Shown piece by piece: positions 3,001 to 9,000 of a DNA stretch of 44,077 nt. Location: positions 1 through 44,077 of IMG/VR virus record IMGVR_UViG_2537561936_000014. The stretch is one strand, 5' to 3'. Position 1 is the first letter of the stretch. Each line of letters begins with the position of its first letter. This DNA is from a virus. Lineage: Duplodnaviria; Heunggongvirae; Uroviricota; Caudoviricetes. Made by a program: the position numbers.

Positions 3001-6000
3001 AATAAATTCACCACGTGATGCAGCAAGCAACTTATCGGCGTCAGGCTGGCTGATATTGGCTGCCTGCATAATTTTGTTTACTTCGTCAGCGGTAACTTTT
3101 ACCGGTTCTGGCTGTGCGGTCGTGTCAGATGCACCAGTATTTTGTTGTGAACCTGAGTATGTACTGTTTTTGCGGGCGAAATATTCTTCTTTCGTGATTT
3201 CAGTAGCCCCGGCAGCCAGCGCCTTATCCAGACCAGAAAGTTTGTTTGCGCGACCGTATTTTTCGCCATCCTTGTCGGTGAAGAGGAAGTAGAACGGCCC
3301 CTCACGCTCTACAGATGGTTCGACTTCCACTTTGCATTCGGTTTTTTCGTTGTCCGGAATTGCCGTTTCCACAGCATCAGTTTCTGGTACTGGCGACGAG
3401 AGAGTATCAGTTGCGCTCTGATTTGTTCCTTCATCTTCAAACATGCCCTTTGTAGTCAGGTATTCAGTAATGTATTTGTTCAGTGCCACAGGATCTTTGT
3501 GAATGTCGATCGGACGTTCACGGACAAGGCCAAAAATAGTCTGGCGGTCGTAGCGAAGGGCATCAGGCTGTTTGCGCATCGATGCCGAGATACGCTTCCA
3601 GTCTTCGCGGTCGTTGTCGATAACTTCATTTTTTGCCCAGCGATGGATGCTGCCGTCAATGTTTCCGGCATCCACATCCCCAGGCCAGAGAGCGTAGGCC
3701 AGTTCGTCATCCAGTGTTTTCCATGTCTGCTTGTATTCGCGATGAGTGGCAGCAATGACCGGGTTGATTTTTCCTGTTGAATTTTCAGTGTTCTGTTGAT
3801 TGGCTCTGGCGCGGGCGAGATCAACAACAGACGTGTATTTTCCGGTTTCCTTGCGTTCACCTTCGCGACGTTTTTTCCAGATGCGCATCTCTGCCTGAAT
3901 TTCGGGCCATTTGGCACCAGGCTTACATTTATGCTTAACCCACCCGATGGCATGCAGCTTAAGTTCCGGATACATGGCGTTAACTTCTGGCATTTTCATC
4001 AACGCTTCAACGATATGTCCGTCGAATGTTGCCATGTCTTCCTGCAACAATTCCTGCGCGCTAATCACCATATCAACGGTGATGTTTTCACATGTGTCGA
4101 ACTTAACCATGACAGCGTTCTGTACTTCAGGGGCCAGCTTGTCAAAAGTGACGTTCATCGGATCTGATTCAGTCTCAACCGGGACAAAGGAAGCAGACTC
4201 CTCATCCCAGCGGTTTTCCTGCATATATTCGGTATCCCAGGAGTCGATAGCAGGGCGGGGCATGCCGGGTTTATCCTCGCAGACAAGAAATTTATAAGCG
4301 CAGTCCTGAGCAGCCGGATATTGCTCCAGGAATTGCCAGGTAAATTTGGCACGGGCGCGGCGCTCGTCACCGGCTTCAATGGCAGTGGCTACAGCAACTG
4401 CACCTTCTTCCTTTATTGCCTGTTCGTCCGGAATGGCGGCGCAAATAAAGACTTTACTCATTTTGTTTTAACCTCATGACAGATTTAAGGATGAACAAAT
4501 CCCTGCCATTGCTGGCATATAAGAATCAAATCTGATGTATTCATTAAGCTGAATGTCGTATTGTGGCAGTTATTTTATTACTGCTCACCATGACTCTGCT
4601 TTTACAGGTAAACCATCACGACCAAGGAAGACTTTAATCATGGTTTCCTTAATACAGTGTTGTGTGGAAAAATCACGAATATAGAGCCGTTGTTTTTTAA
4701 TGTTGTTTACCGAAGCAATATATGTTCTTCCTTTATGAATAACATAATCACCGGGAGTCACGCACTGACGAGGAATCTCATCAGTTCCGAAGTGATGAGC
4801 AATCATAATTATCTCCATTTTTACAAATGAACTTTGTTGATGCGGTGCCTGGTGCCTCCAGGTGACGTTAACCAGTTAACAATTAACGCCGGATACAGAG
4901 AACCCACCCATAACACTGTTTTTGGTTTTAACTGTTCCGCGTGCGCTTAGCCGCATTCACCGCATCACAAAATTCACTTTAAAAAGGGCGGCAGAGCAGT
5001 CACGGAGTAAACTGATACCGCCAAACGCCACCAGAAAATTGATAACAGAGGGCGTTGTAGCGGGGTTGTCACTTAAGCGTATGGTCAACCTGACAACCCG
5101 GTGTCCTCAACGGGGAAGGAATAACCCCGCCATACTTACCGCCGCGCCATTTCGCGGATTGCCACAACCGGAAGCGCACGGTCGAATTAAATTTAACGAC
5201 ACCGTACAGTGAGACGAACTTCGCCGTGCGCTTTCGCGTTATGCCCTGACTTTTCAGGAAAATGCCCTTTCAGTAAACTGTCAGTGCCGGATGCTCACCC
5301 GTGTCCGGCGCACGCACTCCACCTGACCCGTGGAGAACTCCTTAATTACCAACCCTCAGGAGGGTGAAATGACTAGTAAAAATGTAAATATCCAGTTTAA
5401 CCACGATGTTTCTCCTGCTGGACTTGCGGATGAGCTCACTGCTATAAAAACGGCAATTATGCTACTTGCTGCTAAGTTGCCTGCGTCATCAAAGCCAGCG
5501 GAAATTTGTGACTCATTGCGTAAGATGAATTCAACAAAATGCAATGAGATGGCATCACTTATTGAAAGTGCAATTGATTTTAATGATTAATCGAAATTTC
5601 ATGGCTAACTGTAACACTCCCATCTGTGGCGGGATGGTTTAAATCGCTGGGATTAATGCCGCACTCAGTAAAATGGTTCTTAAGGGGTTCTATCCGAATC
5701 CCTTTCTTTTTCATTAACAAGCCAAACCCCTTATCAATGATATCCATTAATGCCAGGAAGTATTTTTCATGTAAATCCTGGTTATCAGAGAGCTGCTTCT
5801 CTTCGTACAGACCGATAAAGGCACGACGCACGTTACCGGATATAGTATCGATGGTTTCTTTTTCTACGGTACTCAGGTCAAGAGTCGCCAGTTGGGAACG
5901 AACTATATTCGCTGCCATTTCCTGGAATTGCATTGGTAAATCTTTAAATTCCATTATTAGCCTCGTTGGTTAGCTATTAACGCGGGTATGTAATCATTCT

Positions 6001-9000
6001 GGCAATGCTTAATGCCGCTGCTTTTTCCAGATTGGTGATATCCCGCTCCAGAGCGGACAGATTTTCAGCCTGCTTAGCCCTGGCTTCATTGGCCCATTTC
6101 AGGTCCTGCACTGCCTTAATTTTCTGGCGCATCCACTCATAAAGTTCATCATCGGTATAGTCTGGCGCGATGATGACGGGTTCTCGTTTCTGCATACTGA
6201 TTCCTCTCAGTGCTGTTTCCCCTTAACGCCGGGGTAGCGGAACAAAAACCTGCTGCATAGTTAAAGTTGAACCCTGCCGTCATGTTCTTACGCCTCGGGC
6301 TGGCTACTTACCCCCTGACCACTGCCTGGTAACTCGAAGTATTGCCCTGCGTTCTGTGGGACGGGGTGGGTTGGTATTTTTAGTTTAATAAACATTAAAC
6401 TTAAGTCAAGTGAAAACTAAATCGTGGGACGTAACAAACACAACGCTTTTGATAAAGTCGTTGCGGTTGTTATGTTTCTATTGGTAGTGAAAGTTAGGGA
6501 AACTGGCGTCTTGCGTGGATCACGTTTACTACTTCAACGCTTGATGTTGTTACGCGGTATAGAATTATATAGTTAGGGTGGGCTACAATCTCACGCAAGC
6601 CTGGTACTCTGTCGCTTGGTGGGTATAAATACGGATGTTCGGATAACGGCAGCACACAACCCCTTAATCGCTGCCATAAGCGTTCAGCCGCATCTATGTC
6701 GAAACGAGCAATATAACTAGTTATATCATCTAGGTCGGTATCTGCGCTTTCAAGCCATAACACGGGTAACATTTTACTGCTTGCTCCGTTCCTTGCGCAT
6801 TTTAGCAAAGCGTTCTGCCATTCTGCGCTCAACTTCGTCATGGGGAATTGCTGGGCGCGGATCTGCAAGGCTCGTTGCTACTTTCGCACGCAGCCATTCG
6901 TTGTAACTGTTTTCTTGTTCAATGGTTTCAAATTCAGAAACCATTGGTGAAAGGGCTCTATTCATGTTTCCTCCGGTTTTATAACTCAGGCGCGGCGGCA
7001 TTTTTGCGCCGCAATCCATCTCGCTATGAGATCTTCCATTGATTCTTTTTTCTGCTTTAGCTCGCTGATTATCTGGCGTTGCTCATCCTCAGGGAAGGCT
7101 GAAAAAATCTGCAATAATTCCAGTTGATTAGACGTTAACCCTGCATGTGGTGGAGAAACCTCCGGTTGTTCTGCGTATTCCGCATCCAGATACCCTTCCG
7201 GCATCCCGTATGTTTGCTCTATTCTTCTGGCAGCCTTTTCTCCAAACGAGGCTCTCCCACTCATTAGTTGAGATAGGTAGCTCTTCTCTTTGGGTGGCAG
7301 AGTTTTATCTTTAAACCACTCCTTGAGACGTAAACGGCGAATTTCTTTTTTTTGCATGTGGTAATTATCTTTAGTAATCACTAAACAAGCAAATACTTGA
7401 CTTAATGGTTTATTAAACACTAAACTCGAAAAAAACACTAAACCGAGGAAGGTATGACATTAAAAGAGTTTATTAAATCATTGAGGGTTGGTGATGCTAA
7501 GAAATTCGCGGCCAGACTTGGTGTATCGCCATCTTACTTATCGCAAATGGCGTCTGGACGAGCAGCTATATCTCCAACCCGCGCCCTCATGATCGAATCT
7601 GCGACGGAAGGCCAAGTAAGTAGGGCGGAGCTACGACCCCATGATTGGGAGCTTATTTGGCCTGAGTATGCGAGCGGCATTCGTTTGGGGCAAACACATG
7701 TAGTTCATGCTGAAGGTGATTGTAGTGCATGCTTATCTGATGGAGTTGATTCATGAAAATCAAGCATGAACACATCCGCATGGCGATGAATGCCTGGGCG
7801 CATCCGGACGGCGAGAAAGTACCGGCTGCAGAGATTACCAAAGCGTATTTCGAGCTGGGAATGACGTTCCCGGAACTGTATGACGACAGCCATCCGGAAG
7901 CCCTGGCTCGCAATACCCAGAAAATTTTCCGCTGGGTAGAGAAAGACACCCCTGATGCAGTTGAAAAAATTCAGGCGTTGTTACCAGCGATCGAAAAGGC
8001 AATGCCACCTTTGCTGGTGGCCAGAATGCGCAGCCACAGTTCTGCTTATTTTCGGGAGCTGGTGGAGACGCGGGAGCGACTGGTGAGAGACGCTGATGAT
8101 TTTGTCGCAGTGGCAATCGCCGGTTTCAATCAGATGAACCGCGGTGGCCCGGCGGGAAATGCCTTGGTGATGCACTAAAAGCACGGTGTTCGGAGTTTTT
8201 TATGAGCAGCAAGCTTCATGGTCTTGTCTGGGAAGGGTGTGCCTTCACCGGCATGATCTTATCCAGGGTGGCAGTTATGGCTCGCCTTGCAGATTACAGC
8301 AATGACGAAGGTGTGTCATGGCCTGCAGTGGAGACCATTCGTCGTCAGATTGGGGCAAAGAGTGAATCAACGGTTAAAGCTGCGATAGCAGAACTGGAAA
8401 AGAACGGCTGGCTGACGAAGGAGGAACGTAAGGTCGGTGGGCGTAATGAAAGCAATATCTACCGTCTTAATGTGGAAAAACTCGAAGCAGCAGCAGCGGC
8501 GGCGCGTGAGGCATATAAACCGAAAAGAAAAATTAGCCAGGCAAAAAATGACCCGTCAAATATTGCCCCCTCAACGGTTAACCCATCAAATTTTGATGGA
8601 TCAACCGTTGATAAAAAACAGTCGGATAGGGGGGCGATGGTTGGCCCCGATCCGTCAGTATTAAAACCTGATCCGTCAGATAAAAGATCTTTTCGTCCGG
8701 AAGCTTCGCAACCGGACATGCAGACGGCTGAACAGGATTTTTTAACCCGACACCCTGACGCGGTTGTGTTCAGTGCGAAAAAACGCCAGTGGGGTAGCCA
8801 GGAAGATTTAGCGTGTGCGCAGTGGATCTGGGGGCGAATCGTGAGTCTTTACGAGCAGGCCGCCAGCGATGATGGCGAGATTTCGCGACCGAAAGAACCC
8901 AACTGGACCGCATGGGCCAACGACGTGCGCACAATGCGGATGCTGGATGGCAGAACTCACAGACAAATTTGTGAAATGTTTGGTCGGGTGCAGCGGGATC

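What the first reader, a model, noticed from the sequence alone, without database searches (positions are those of the whole stretch)
4462..6195. Cluster of small unrecognised early genes with an unusually long GC-rich leader
Four small ORFs (77, 73, 124 and 72 aa) are unrecognised, and 4819-5368 is about 550 bp of GC-rich sequence with several short stem-loops and no convincing ORF. This is the position where lambdoid phages carry kil, superinfection-exclusion and anti-defence genes, so the region is a reasonable place for new host-takeover or anti-defence functions or a structured RNA.
Basis: inference. Interest (0 to 1): 0.45.

Follow-up and report, generated by a model that had tools for sequence, protein, structure and literature searches.

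The report
Prophage DicF–KilR division-inhibitor operon
The flagged stretch is the well-known early operon of E. coli Rac/Qin-type prophages that makes the small RNA DicF and the protein KilR to stop host cell division, so it is mostly ordinary; the one possibly new item is a conserved three-hairpin RNA leader in front of a small opposite-strand gene, a leader shared by about a dozen unrelated small prophage genes.

Summary
The four ORFs and the ~550-bp ORF-free stretch exist as described, but most of it is already explained. Read on the minus strand, the region is the early-left operon of a Rac/Qin-type lambdoid E. coli prophage: ydfC (6195-5977, 96% identical to K-12 YdfC), orf124 (5954-5580, unknown function), a long untranslated region carrying the sRNA DicF (5037-4986, Rfam 69.6 bits against a gathering score of 48), kilR (4806-4585, 81% identical to K-12 KilR, an FtsZ inhibitor) and a RecE-like exonuclease. 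The "GC-rich leader" is the published "long untranslated region containing dicF". It is 93% identical to K-12 Qin and occurs in 4722 of 5426 complete E. coli genomes. Its GC content (51.5%) is unremarkable for the window. Two ORFs remain uncharacterised. They sit in a variable cassette slot between ydfC and the dicF region. The plus-strand orf73 (5369-5590) is a real gene (dN/dS 0.15-0.36). It is preceded by an 85-nt three-hairpin leader (5284-5368) that hides the ribosome-binding site, shows covariation, has no Rfam match, and precedes 13 unrelated small-protein families at a fixed distance. That leader is the only possibly new item. Overall interest is low to moderate.

The parts
6382..6409 (-). 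Candidate pL-type early-left promoter (TTGACT-16-TAAACT) in the 300-bp gap between the ParE/PaaA2 pair and ydfC
   Evidence: Consensus scan only. The position is inferred by analogy with dicBp of Qin. Not tested.
5977..6195 (-). ydfC homologue (72 aa), first gene of the operon here; function unknown
   Evidence: 96% identical to K-12 YdfC b1573. phrog_1744 E 2.6e-38. Nearly invariant in the alignment with Qin, Tritos and Evi.
5580..5954 (-). orf124: early-left gene of unknown function. The N-terminal ~55 aa ('MEFKDL...NVRRAFIGLYEEK') are conserved. The C-terminal part is variable and overlaps orf73 tail-to-tail by 11 nt.
   Evidence: phrog_6937 E 1.5e-81; only the N-terminus matches phrog_1363, 2151 and 9419. 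239 homologues, all Escherichia or Salmonella 'hypothetical'. Alignment. AF2 gives three helices plus a disordered tail, pLDDT 61.7. No Pfam, NCBIfam, PADLOC or PDB hits.
5682..5713 (+). Intrinsic-terminator-like hairpin plus T-run on the plus strand, inside orf124; likely the 3' end of the orf73 transcription unit
   Evidence: Scan result: 9-bp stem AAGGGGTTC/GAATCCCTT followed by TCTTTTTCAT. Its role is inferred.
5369..5590 (+). orf73: small protein gene in the orientation opposite to the operon (the 'cargo' of the leader); function unknown
   Evidence: phrog_7249 E 5.8e-46. Homologues at 74% and 66% identity keep the frame. dN/dS 0.15-0.36. A Salmonella homologue travels with the leader in an unrelated integrase/Cox-type element that lacks DicF. 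AF2 gives three helices, pLDDT 67.5.
5284..5368 (+). Three-hairpin 5' leader of orf73. hp1 is 5286-5291/5304-5309 with a 12-nt loop. hp2 is 5317-5322/5330-5335. hp3 pairs the anti-SD CUCCU (5338-5342) with the SD AGGAG (5358-5362). The ATG is at 5369.
   Evidence: Covariance model R1 scores 107.7 bits and finds a single copy in the window. Covariation is shown. No Rfam match at E<=10. The leader precedes 13 unrelated ORF families with the ATG 81-89 nt from hp1.
5251..5279 (+). Candidate promoter of the orf73 unit (TTTTCA-17-TAAACT), ending 6 nt before hp1
   Evidence: Read from the sequence; 8 of 12 matches, below the scan threshold. A -10-like hexamer at this place occurs in 9 of 16 distinct upstream contexts, against 2-4 of 16 in control windows. 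No transcript data.
5038..5283 (-). Upstream part of the DicF precursor. It includes a long helix (5219-5231 with 5174-5186) where, by distance, the published RNase III cut that makes the ~190-nt DicF species falls (~5175).
   Evidence: 93% identical to the K-12 ydfC-dicF spacer. 93-99% column conservation from 5201 downwards in 103 loci. The helix is in the MFE fold. The RNase III/190-nt data come from PMC10448788. The mapping onto the window is inference.
4986..5037 (-). DicF sRNA gene (52 nt) with its terminator hairpin and U-run
   Evidence: Rfam RF00039, 69.6 bits (gathering 48), E 2e-13. Aligned base for base with K-12 dicF b1574. It differs by A10G and one U fewer in the loop.
4807..4985 (-). 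5'UTR of kilR, downstream of the DicF terminator
   Evidence: Nearly identical to the Rac kilS-kilR and Qin dicF-dicB spacers. Sub-threshold similarity to Rfam STnc100 (37.6 bits against gathering 47, E 4e-6). Complete in 124 of 131 DicF loci.
4585..4806 (-). kilR (73 aa): inhibitor of FtsZ and of cell elongation. SD GGAG at 4816-4813.
   Evidence: NF008465, 139.7 bits (cutoff 92), residues 5-77 of the 77-aa ORF. 81% identical to K-12 KilR. phrog_294. Function from PMC12482147 and PMC5793797.
4462..4584 (-). Conserved spacer and translation-initiation region of the RecE-like exonuclease gene
   Evidence: The last ~70 nt are identical in Qin, Tritos and Evi.
1990..4461 (-). Next gene of the operon: 823-aa RecE-like protein with a DEDDh (Rv2179c-like) C-terminal exonuclease domain
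   Evidence: PF16473 E 6.9e-68. The middle region is 39% identical to Rac RecE.

Best explanation
The region is the immediate-early leftward operon of a Rac/Qin-type lambdoid prophage of E. coli, read on the minus strand.

How the operon works. When the cI/DicA-like repressor (6986-7438) is lost, transcription from a promoter near 6400 runs through ydfC, orf124 and a ~550-nt untranslated stretch, then into kilR, a RecE-like exonuclease, xis and int. RNase III and RNase E cut the 52-nt Hfq-dependent sRNA DicF out of the untranslated stretch. DicF's own hairpin is a partial terminator. DicF blocks ftsZ translation by base pairing, and also regulates xylR, pykA and manX. KilR protein blocks FtsZ and cell elongation. 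Together they arrest host division during phage development. The steps shown here are the identity of each part by model score and by alignment to K-12. The processing and the targets are taken from published work on K-12.

The cassette. Between ydfC and the DicF region sits a variable cassette slot. In this window it holds orf124 (minus strand) and the convergent orf73 (plus strand). I infer that orf73 is a separate small transcription unit. It would have a weak promoter (5251-5279), an 85-nt leader whose third helix hides the ribosome-binding site, a 73-aa helical protein, and a terminator inside orf124. I infer that translation of orf73 is held off until the leader is opened. Its product is probably an accessory function (exclusion, anti-defence or antitoxin-like), by analogy with sieB, which lies on the opposite strand at the corresponding place in Rac.
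For: - DicF: Rfam 69.6 bits against a gathering score of 48, at 4986-5036(-).
- The stretch 4826-5354 is 93% identical to the K-12 ydfC-dicB spacer and is found in 4722 of 5426 E. coli genomes. A four-way alignment with Qin, Tritos and Evi shows the same order of parts. Phage Tritos annotates DicF at the same place.
- KilR: NF008465 139.7 bits against a cutoff of 92; 81% identical to K-12 KilR.
- YdfC: 96% identical to K-12 YdfC.
- Rac has the same layout: racR, ydaG, ydaF, [sieB on the opposite strand], kilS sRNA, kilR, recE. Its kilR 5'UTR is nearly identical to the window's.
- Cassette slot: the gap from ydfC to the untranslated region is 20 nt in 51 loci, and 403 or 610-676 nt in 15 loci. 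Phage Evi carries a different gene pair between the same ends.
- orf73 is a real gene: dN/dS 0.15-0.36.
- Leader: 90.8% of cells paired against 32-50% when the partners are slid; 34 double-sided changes against 11.4 +/- 2.3 in shuffles. RNAalifold finds hp1 and hp3 on its own, with UA:14 and AU:14 at one anti-SD/SD pair. 13 cargo families have the ATG 81-89 nt from hp1. A -10-like hexamer lies just upstream in 9 of 16 contexts. A plus-strand terminator-like site lies at 5682-5713.
Against: - No expression data for this element were available, so processing, DicF targets and KilR activity are transferred from K-12.
- This DicF differs from K-12 DicF at two positions (A10G and one U fewer in the loop). 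The effect on target pairing was not tested.
- For the leader, G-U versus A-C counts do not decide the strand (6 against 9).
- hp1 never varies, so it says nothing for or against pairing.
- The proposed promoter is weak (8 of 12 matches) and absent in some contexts.
- K-12 Qin keeps hp1 and hp2 without any cargo gene. That fits a minus-strand role or recent loss equally well.
- No function could be assigned to orf73 or orf124.
Confidence: 0.82

Rival explanations
1. One reading: 4819-5368 is one long, new, structured leader or RNA that belongs to a cluster of novel early genes with host-takeover or anti-defence roles.
For: The stretch is ORF-free and folds better than shuffles. orf124 and orf73 have no known function.
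Against: About 465 of the 550 nt are the known dicF precursor and the kilR 5'UTR on the minus strand. Two of the four ORFs are KilR and YdfC. GC content is ordinary.
Confidence: 0.05
2. The hp1-hp2 element (5284-5336) works in the minus-strand early transcript, for example as a processing, stabilising or anti-termination element upstream of the DicF terminator. Its position in front of plus-strand ORFs would then be a by-product of where cassettes recombine.
For: K-12 Qin and 51 other loci keep hp1 and hp2 directly after ydfC with no plus-strand cargo. Watson-Crick covariation is strand-neutral, and the G-U/A-C counts are undecided. The operon has no N homologue but must read through the DicF terminator to reach kilR, recE, xis and int (inference).
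Against: hp3 pairs an anti-SD with the SD and covaries (UA:14, AU:14), which is meaningful only on the plus strand. The ATG offset is fixed at 81-89 nt for 13 unrelated ORF families. The leader travels with orf73 into a Salmonella element without DicF, and several cargo families are never DicF-linked. One-sided C:G to U:G changes in the inner stem of hp1 keep pairing only on the plus strand.
Confidence: 0.2
3. orf124 and orf73 form a cognate pair. orf124 would be a toxin or effector with a variable C-terminus, made on induction. orf73 would be its immunity, antitoxin or exclusion partner, made in the lysogen.
For: The genes are convergent and overlapping. In DicF loci each forward C-terminal type comes with one reverse gene type. 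Forward genes share an N-terminal ~55 aa and differ in the C-terminus. One cargo family is GhoS-like (PF11080, 21.2 bits, cutoff 21).
Against: The Salmonella orf73 homologue sits beside an unrelated 129-aa gene with a 179-nt gap. The variable C-terminal tail of orf124 is predicted to be disordered and is largely the part that overlaps the reverse gene, so physical linkage explains the 1:1 pattern. No PADLOC, Pfam toxin or PDB hits.
Confidence: 0.12
4. The 85-nt element has no RNA function. It is a conserved 'boundary sequence' kept because homologous recombination between lambdoid prophages uses it to swap cassettes.
For: It lies exactly at the mosaic joint between the variable cassette and the conserved dicF region. 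Overall divergence among loci is low.
Against: Compensatory changes occur in hp2 (CUCCAC:GUGGAG, CCCAAC:GUUGGG, CUCCAU:AUGGAG, CCCUAC:GUAGGG, CCCGAC:GUCGGG) and in hp3. A pure recombination arm would not need pairing or a fixed distance to start codons.
Confidence: 0.12

Closest known systems
dicBF operon of cryptic prophage Qin, E. coli K-12 (ydfA-ydfB-ydfC-dicF-dicB-ydfD)
   Same: It has the same ydfC (96% aa identity), the same ~530-nt untranslated region (93% nt identity), and DicF at the same place with the same terminator. It uses the same repressor-controlled early-left logic (PMC5069750, PMC10448788).
   Different: The window lacks ydfA and ydfB. It carries kilR instead of dicB-ydfD downstream of DicF. 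It has a 622-bp cassette (orf124 and orf73) inserted between ydfC and the untranslated region. Its DicF has A10G and one loop U fewer.
kilS-kilR segment of cryptic prophage Rac, E. coli K-12
   Same: KilR is 81% identical. The 5'UTR from the terminator to the kilR start is nearly identical. recE-type, xis and int genes lie downstream. An opposite-strand gene (sieB) sits just upstream of the sRNA.
   Different: Rac has the sRNA KilS (98 nt, different 5' part) where the window has DicF. Rac's opposite-strand gene is sieB, and it lacks the three-hairpin leader (no R1 hit at E<=10). Rac has ydaE and racC between kilR and recE.
Rfam STnc100 (RF02076), prophage-encoded enterobacterial sRNA
   Same: 4799-4984(-) aligns over the whole 206-position model, including the CACC-GGAGGCACC-GGCACC hairpin region.
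   Different: The score of 37.6 bits is below the gathering score of 47. I treat it as a distant relative or shared module, not as a member.
SD-sequestering translational leaders (RNA thermometers such as ROSE/FourU; the Mu com-mom leader opened by a protein)
   Same: A helix pairs the Shine-Dalgarno sequence with an upstream anti-SD. Upstream hairpins could be a sensor or a binding site. The comparison itself rests on my own knowledge of those systems.
   Different: No sequence or model similarity to any Rfam family. hp1, including its 12-nt loop, is almost invariant. The same leader serves 13 unrelated coding sequences. The trigger that opens it is unknown.
Opposite-strand, lysogen-expressed accessory genes inside lambdoid early-left operons (for example sieB of Rac)
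   Same: orf73 is a small gene in the opposite orientation, placed between the repressor-proximal early genes and the kil function (for Rac).
   Different: orf73 is 73 aa, soluble and helical, and unrelated to SieB. An exclusion function was not shown.

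Membership tests
DicF sRNA (Rfam RF00039) | Match to the covariance model at or above the gathering score | tested here: met
   69.6 bits against 48, model positions 1-52 of 52, no non-canonical pairs.
DicF sRNA (Rfam RF00039) | Terminator hairpin GGCGG...CCGCC followed by a U-run at the 3' end | tested here: met
   GGCGGUAUCAG...CUGCUCUGCCGCCC followed by UUUUU at 5023-4981(-).
DicF sRNA (Rfam RF00039) | Embedded in the long untranslated region between ydfC-type genes and a division-inhibitor gene of a prophage early operon | tested here: met
   Alignment with Qin, Tritos and Evi. 131 DicF loci share the flanks.
DicF sRNA (Rfam RF00039) | [quoted passage not shown] | not testable with these tools
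   Known for K-12 (PMC10448788, PMC5069750). Here only the helix at the expected RNase III position is seen in the fold.
DicF sRNA (Rfam RF00039) | Intact target-pairing regions (3' part for ftsZ and pykA, 5' part for xylR) | not tested
   Two differences from K-12 (A10G; one U fewer in the loop) are seen. Duplexes with the targets were not computed.
KilR, FtsZ inhibitor (NCBIfam NF008465) | HMM score above the curated cutoff over the full length | tested here: met
   139.7 bits against 92; profile positions 1-73 of 73 matched by residues 5-77.
KilR, FtsZ inhibitor (NCBIfam NF008465) | Close similarity to the characterised Rac KilR, with the same genomic neighbourhood | tested here: met
   81% identity over 73 aa. 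Same 5'UTR and a downstream recE-type gene.
KilR, FtsZ inhibitor (NCBIfam NF008465) | Inhibits cell division or elongation when expressed | not testable with these tools
   Published for Rac KilR (PMC12482147).
YdfC (phrog_1744) | Sequence identity to K-12 YdfC, at the same position upstream of the dicF region | tested here: met
   96% identity over 72 aa; alignment.
STnc100 (Rfam RF02076) | Covariance-model score at or above the gathering score | tested here: not met
   37.6 bits against 47. Reported as a resemblance only.
Known anti-phage defence or toxin-antitoxin proteins (PADLOC, Pfam) for orf124 and orf73 | Profile match to a defence, toxin or antitoxin family | tested here: not met
   No hits in PADLOC at E<=0.1, Pfam or NCBIfam. 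PDB sequence search gave E>0.5. Foldseek against BFVD gave nothing at E<=0.001.
Cognate toxin-immunity pair (orf124/orf73) | The partner genes always co-occur | tested here: not met
   The pattern is 1:1 within DicF loci, but the Salmonella orf73 homologue has an unrelated neighbour.
Any described cis-regulatory RNA family (Rfam 15) for the leader 5284-5368 | Any covariance-model match | tested here: not met
   No match at E<=10 on either strand for 5260-5400 or at E<=5 for 4400-6450. The hp1 sequence is absent from searchable full texts.
Conserved structured RNA (generic criterion) for the leader 5284-5368 | Base pairs kept through compensatory changes, beyond the shuffled and slid controls | tested here: met
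   Unfitted MAFFT alignment: 34 double-sided-change cells against 11.4 +/- 2.3 (0 of 500 shuffles reach it); 90.8% paired against 32-50% when slid. Model-fitted alignment: 48 against 13.0 +/- 2.6. hp1 is invariant and so uninformative.
Independent transcription unit ('moron') for orf73 | Own promoter and terminator, with a transcript start upstream of the leader | tested here: inconclusive
   A weak TTTTCA-17-TAAACT lies upstream. A -10-like hexamer occurs in 9 of 16 contexts against 2-4 of 16 in controls. A terminator-like site lies at 5682-5713. TSS data sets could not be reached.

The most novel reading that the evidence does not exclude
The 85-nt three-hairpin element at 5284-5368(+) would be an undescribed cis-regulatory RNA leader. 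It would act as a shared, translationally gated 'expression platform' for interchangeable small accessory genes of enterobacterial prophages and satellites. At least 13 unrelated families of 59-112 aa use it, including a GhoS-like and a weakly Lar-like protein. hp1 would be the binding site for an unknown factor that opens the SD-sequestering helix. If so, the leader could serve as a search handle for new exclusion, anti-defence or antitoxin genes. The slot between ydfC and dicF would be a hot spot where such cassettes are exchanged.
Probability: 0.4. Interest if true: 0.55.

Novelty: new member of a known kind. Interest (0 to 1): 0.3.

Why it matters
The flagged locus is largely explained. 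It is one more copy of the DicF/KilR host-division-arrest module that most E. coli genomes carry, here as a Qin-Rac hybrid with DicF upstream of kilR. That removes it from the list of mysteries.

Two by-products remain. First, the site between ydfC and the dicF region is a cassette slot holding many alternative convergent gene pairs of unknown function. Second, the reverse-strand genes in that slot, and others in unrelated elements, share a covarying leader that masks the ribosome-binding site and is not in Rfam. If that leader is a real regulatory RNA, it gives a cheap sequence handle for finding small prophage accessory genes, and a testable case of common translational control over unrelated genes.

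Tried and rejected
- **Profile searches for orf124 and orf73.** Pfam, NCBIfam and PADLOC gave nothing. PHROGs gave only unknown-function families.
- **PDB sequence search.** Only chance-level hits.
- **AlphaFold2.** The models were of low confidence (pLDDT 61.7 and 67.5). Foldseek against viral structures found no match at E<=0.001. I ran no further search on such weak models.
- **Scan of one genome per species for the DicF core.** Only 8 loci came back (Escherichia, Shigella, Salmonella and some MAG contigs). That is too little divergence to test covariation in the DicF precursor itself, which is 93-100% conserved.
- **RNAalifold on the 5' part of the untranslated region, using all DicF loci.** It failed because about a quarter of the loci are not homologous there. 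I repeated it on true homologues.
- **Deciding the leader's strand from G-U versus A-C counts.** Undecided, 6 against 9.
- **A trans-acting complement to the hp1 loop in the window.** Only chance-level matches.
- **HK022 put-like antitermination RNA, considered for hp1-hp2.** The paper I read gives no sequence. The put stems are much longer, so I did not pursue it.
- **K-12 transcription-start data for an antisense start in Qin.** One paper is not held, and the other's supplements contain no such coordinates.
- **The leader in front of Rac sieB.** No hit.
- **Filing 4799-4984 as STnc100.** Rejected, because the score is below the gathering threshold.

Full report
**1. What is in the sequence**

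The window is a lambdoid prophage of E. coli. On the minus strand it reads:
- integrase (572-1690) and excisionase (1659-1937);
- an 823-aa RecE-like exonuclease (1990-4461);
- the flagged region (4462-6195);
- a ParE/PaaA2 toxin-antitoxin pair (6494-7019);
- a repressor gene (6986-7438).

A cro-like gene and replication genes follow on the plus strand.

The stretch 4819-5368 has no conserved ORF. The mechanical ORFs there change length from 48 to 188 aa among homologous loci. It folds better than shuffled sequence (z = -4.3 for the minus-strand RNA). It is not unusually GC-rich: 0.515 against 0.490 +/- 0.040 for 550-bp windows, and 30% of those windows are at least as high. It only contrasts with AT-rich neighbours.

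**2. The 'leader' is the dicF region of a dicBF/kil-type operon, on the other strand**

Rfam places DicF at 4986-5036(-) with 69.6 bits against a gathering score of 48. Alignment to K-12 sets the 5' end at 5037.

The stretch 4826-5354 is 93% identical to the K-12 Qin spacer between ydfC and dicB. A match is present in 4722 of 5426 complete E. coli genomes.

A four-way alignment with Qin and phages Tritos and Evi gives the modular picture (annotations):
- ydfC is nearly identical in all four.
- An optional cassette follows ydfC.
- The ~530-nt untranslated region with DicF comes next.
- Then comes either dicB-ydfD (Qin, Tritos) or kilR (window, Evi).
- A conserved ~70-nt run-up to the recE-type gene closes the segment.

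[quoted passage not shown] It shows that DicF is cut from the polycistronic transcript by RNase III, giving a 190-nt species, and by RNase E, giving a 53-nt species (PMC10448788). By distance, the RNase III cut would fall at about 5175. That lies inside a long helix (5219-5231 with 5174-5186) present in the minimum-energy fold. The mapping is my inference.

In 103 distinct DicF loci, columns from 5201 down to 4827 are 93-100% conserved. Covariation therefore cannot be tested for this part.

**3. The ORFs**

- **The 77-aa ORF is KilR.** NCBIfam NF008465 scores 139.7 bits against a cutoff of 92, matching residues 5-77. The protein is 81% identical to K-12 Rac KilR. The real start is therefore ATG 4806, with GGAG six bases upstream.
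- **The 72-aa ORF is YdfC.** It is 96% identical to K-12 YdfC.
- **Rac has the same layout.** It reads racR, ydaG, ydaF, sieB on the opposite strand, the sRNA KilS, then kilR and recE. Its kilR 5'UTR downstream of the sRNA terminator is almost identical to the window's. KilS is a RIL-seq-predicted, Northern-verified sRNA from the kilR 5'UTR (PMC8175672).
- **The window is a Qin/Rac hybrid**, with DicF in front of kilR. This pairing is uncommon in my sample: kilR follows DicF in 4 of 131 loci.
- **The stretch between DicF and kilR also resembles Rfam STnc100.** The score is below threshold, 37.6 against 47 bits.

**4. A cassette slot**

Among 131 DicF loci from IMG/VR and reference genomes, ydfC ends 20 nt before the untranslated region in 51 loci. 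In 15 loci, 403 or 610-676 nt are inserted. The inserts are different convergent gene pairs.

The forward genes all begin 'MEFKDL...' and share about 55 N-terminal residues, then diverge. The reverse genes are unrelated to each other.

The window's pair is orf124 and orf73, whose ends overlap by 11 nt.
- orf124 has 239 relatives, all 'hypothetical', in Escherichia and Salmonella.
- orf73 has six relatives.
- orf73 is under purifying selection, with dN/dS 0.15-0.36 against homologues at 74% and 66% identity.
- Neither has Pfam, NCBIfam, PADLOC or PDB relatives.
- The AlphaFold models are helical and of low confidence, and give no fold matches.

**5. A conserved leader in front of orf73**

The Salmonella homologue of orf73 lies in an unrelated integrase/Cox-type element without DicF. 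Nucleotide homology to the window starts 84 nt upstream of the ATG. So the last ~85 nt of the 'leader' travel with the plus-strand gene.

The same element precedes 13 unrelated ORF families of 59-112 aa. It always has a Shine-Dalgarno sequence, and the ATG lies 81-89 nt from hp1. Several of these families are never next to DicF.

Its architecture in the window is:
- hp1, 5286-5291 with 5304-5309, 12-nt loop, almost invariant;
- hp2, 5317-5322 with 5330-5335;
- a conserved AACUCC(A/U)U;
- hp3, pairing CUCCU (5338-5342) with the SD AGGAG (5358-5362);
- the ATG at 5369.

The evidence for structure:
- On a plain MAFFT alignment of 29 distinct leaders, 90.8% of cells pair, against 32-50% when partners are slid.
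- On the same alignment there are 34 double-sided changes against 11.4 +/- 2.3 in shuffles, with 0 of 500 shuffles reaching the observed value.
- hp2 occurs as CUCCAC:GUGGAG, CCCAAC:GUUGGG, CUCCAU:AUGGAG, CCCUAC:GUAGGG and CCCGAC:GUCGGG.
- One anti-SD/SD pair is UA in 14 rows and AU in 14.
- A covariance model finds one copy in the window (107.7 bits), a cargo-less remnant in K-12 Qin (58 bits), and none in Rac.
- The model-fitted alignment gives 48 double-sided changes against 13.0 +/- 2.6. That alignment leans towards the model.

Rfam has nothing there at E<=10, and the sequence is not found in searchable papers.

A -10-like hexamer lies just upstream of hp1 in 9 of 16 independent contexts, against 2-4 of 16 in control windows. 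Some of these are extended -10 motifs. In the window the candidate promoter is TTTTCA-17-TAAACT (5251-5279). A plus-strand terminator-like hairpin sits at 5682-5713 inside orf124.

The strand is not settled by G-U counts. The case for the plus strand rests on hp3, the fixed ATG distance, and co-mobility with the ORF.

**6. How it most likely works**

On derepression, the early-left transcript yields DicF (antisense block of ftsZ translation, plus metabolic targets) and KilR (block of FtsZ and elongation). This arrests host division while recombination and excision genes downstream are expressed. I take this mechanism from K-12 work (PMC5069750, PMC10448788, PMC12482147, PMC5793797). Here it is supported only by identity of the parts.

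I infer that orf73 is a separate, translationally gated accessory gene in the slot where Rac keeps sieB. Its function is unknown. Among sister cargo genes, one is GhoS-like (21.2 bits, cutoff 21) and one is weakly Lar-like. That points to antitoxin or anti-restriction-type accessory roles, but this is only a hint.

**7. Comparison, novelty and score**

DicF, KilR and YdfC pass their membership tests. STnc100 does not.

The window sequence is 100% identical to a RefSeq E. coli chromosome, and the region is 97% identical over 68% of its length to phage Evi. The flagged feature is therefore essentially known, as a new combination of known modules.

The leader and its cargo slot are, as far as these tools can tell, undescribed. 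I score overall interest at 0.3. The leader hypothesis has a probability of about 0.4 and would merit about 0.55 if true.

Noticed in passing
window 11374-11548 (+): Full-length match to the Rfam sok antitoxin RNA (RF01794): 117.7 bits against a gathering score of 59. This implies a hok/sok-type type I toxin-antitoxin locus in the prophage's replication and late-regulation region.
   Followed up: no
window 35136-35219 (-): Full-length match to Rfam sRNA-Xcc1 (RF02221): 78 bits against a gathering score of 53, within the late or structural part of the prophage.
   Followed up: no
window 14011-14164 (+): Two adjacent prophage-borne tRNA genes, tRNA-Thr(UGU) and tRNA-Gly(UCC).
   Followed up: no
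window 6494-7019 (-): A ParE toxin (PF05016, E 4.8e-16) and a PaaA2 antitoxin (PF21217, E 1.7e-19) sit directly downstream of the repressor gene, between it and the early-left operon.
   Followed up: no
window 1990-4461 (-): The 823-aa 'exonuclease VIII' shares only the middle region with Rac RecE (39% identity over 371 aa). Its C-terminus is a DEDDh Rv2179c-like/RNase T-type 3'-5' exonuclease domain (PF16473, E 6.9e-68) instead of the RecE nuclease domain. No recT-like gene was seen between it and xis.
   Followed up: partly
window 6986-7438 (-): The presumed repressor (150 aa) has no Pfam hit. It shows only weak C-terminal similarity to DicA (NF007257, 28 bits against a cutoff of 101). The annotated start may also be too far upstream.
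   Followed up: no
L132 2861-3166 (Salmonella enterica contig DBKWGM010000020.1): The leader plus an orf73 homologue (74% aa identity) lie in an integrase/Cox/Ash/'Derepression'-type element next to pheA. They are oriented against the neighbouring genes, and no DicF is nearby. This suggests the leader-ORF unit moves between unrelated mobile elements.
   Followed up: partly
L104 3994-4088 and downstream; L185 and L210: Among the genes that share the leader, one 94-aa family just passes Pfam GhoS (PF11080, 21.2 bits, cutoff 21). A 62-aa zinc-ribbon family weakly resembles the Rac restriction-alleviation protein Lar (20.3 bits against a cutoff of 28.6).
   Followed up: partly
L003 2543-2633 (-) = K-12 Qin, about 1,649,042-1,649,132: K-12 Qin keeps hp1, hp2 and the anti-SD of the leader directly after ydfC. 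It has lost the SD and any cargo gene (R1 58 bits; the hp3 pairs are broken).
   Followed up: yes
window 5682-5713 (+) within orf124: The plus-strand terminator-like hairpin coincides with the codons for the conserved 'KKKGIRIEPL' segment of orf124. That segment is also kept in the 106-110-aa variants paired with a different reverse gene. The conservation may therefore partly reflect the opposite-strand signal.
   Followed up: no
L012, L018, L022 and about 25 other DicF loci: In about a quarter of DicF loci, homology to the window's untranslated region begins only ~218 nt upstream of DicF. A 59-76-aa forward ORF (cluster c12) occupies the place of the upstream part.
   Followed up: no
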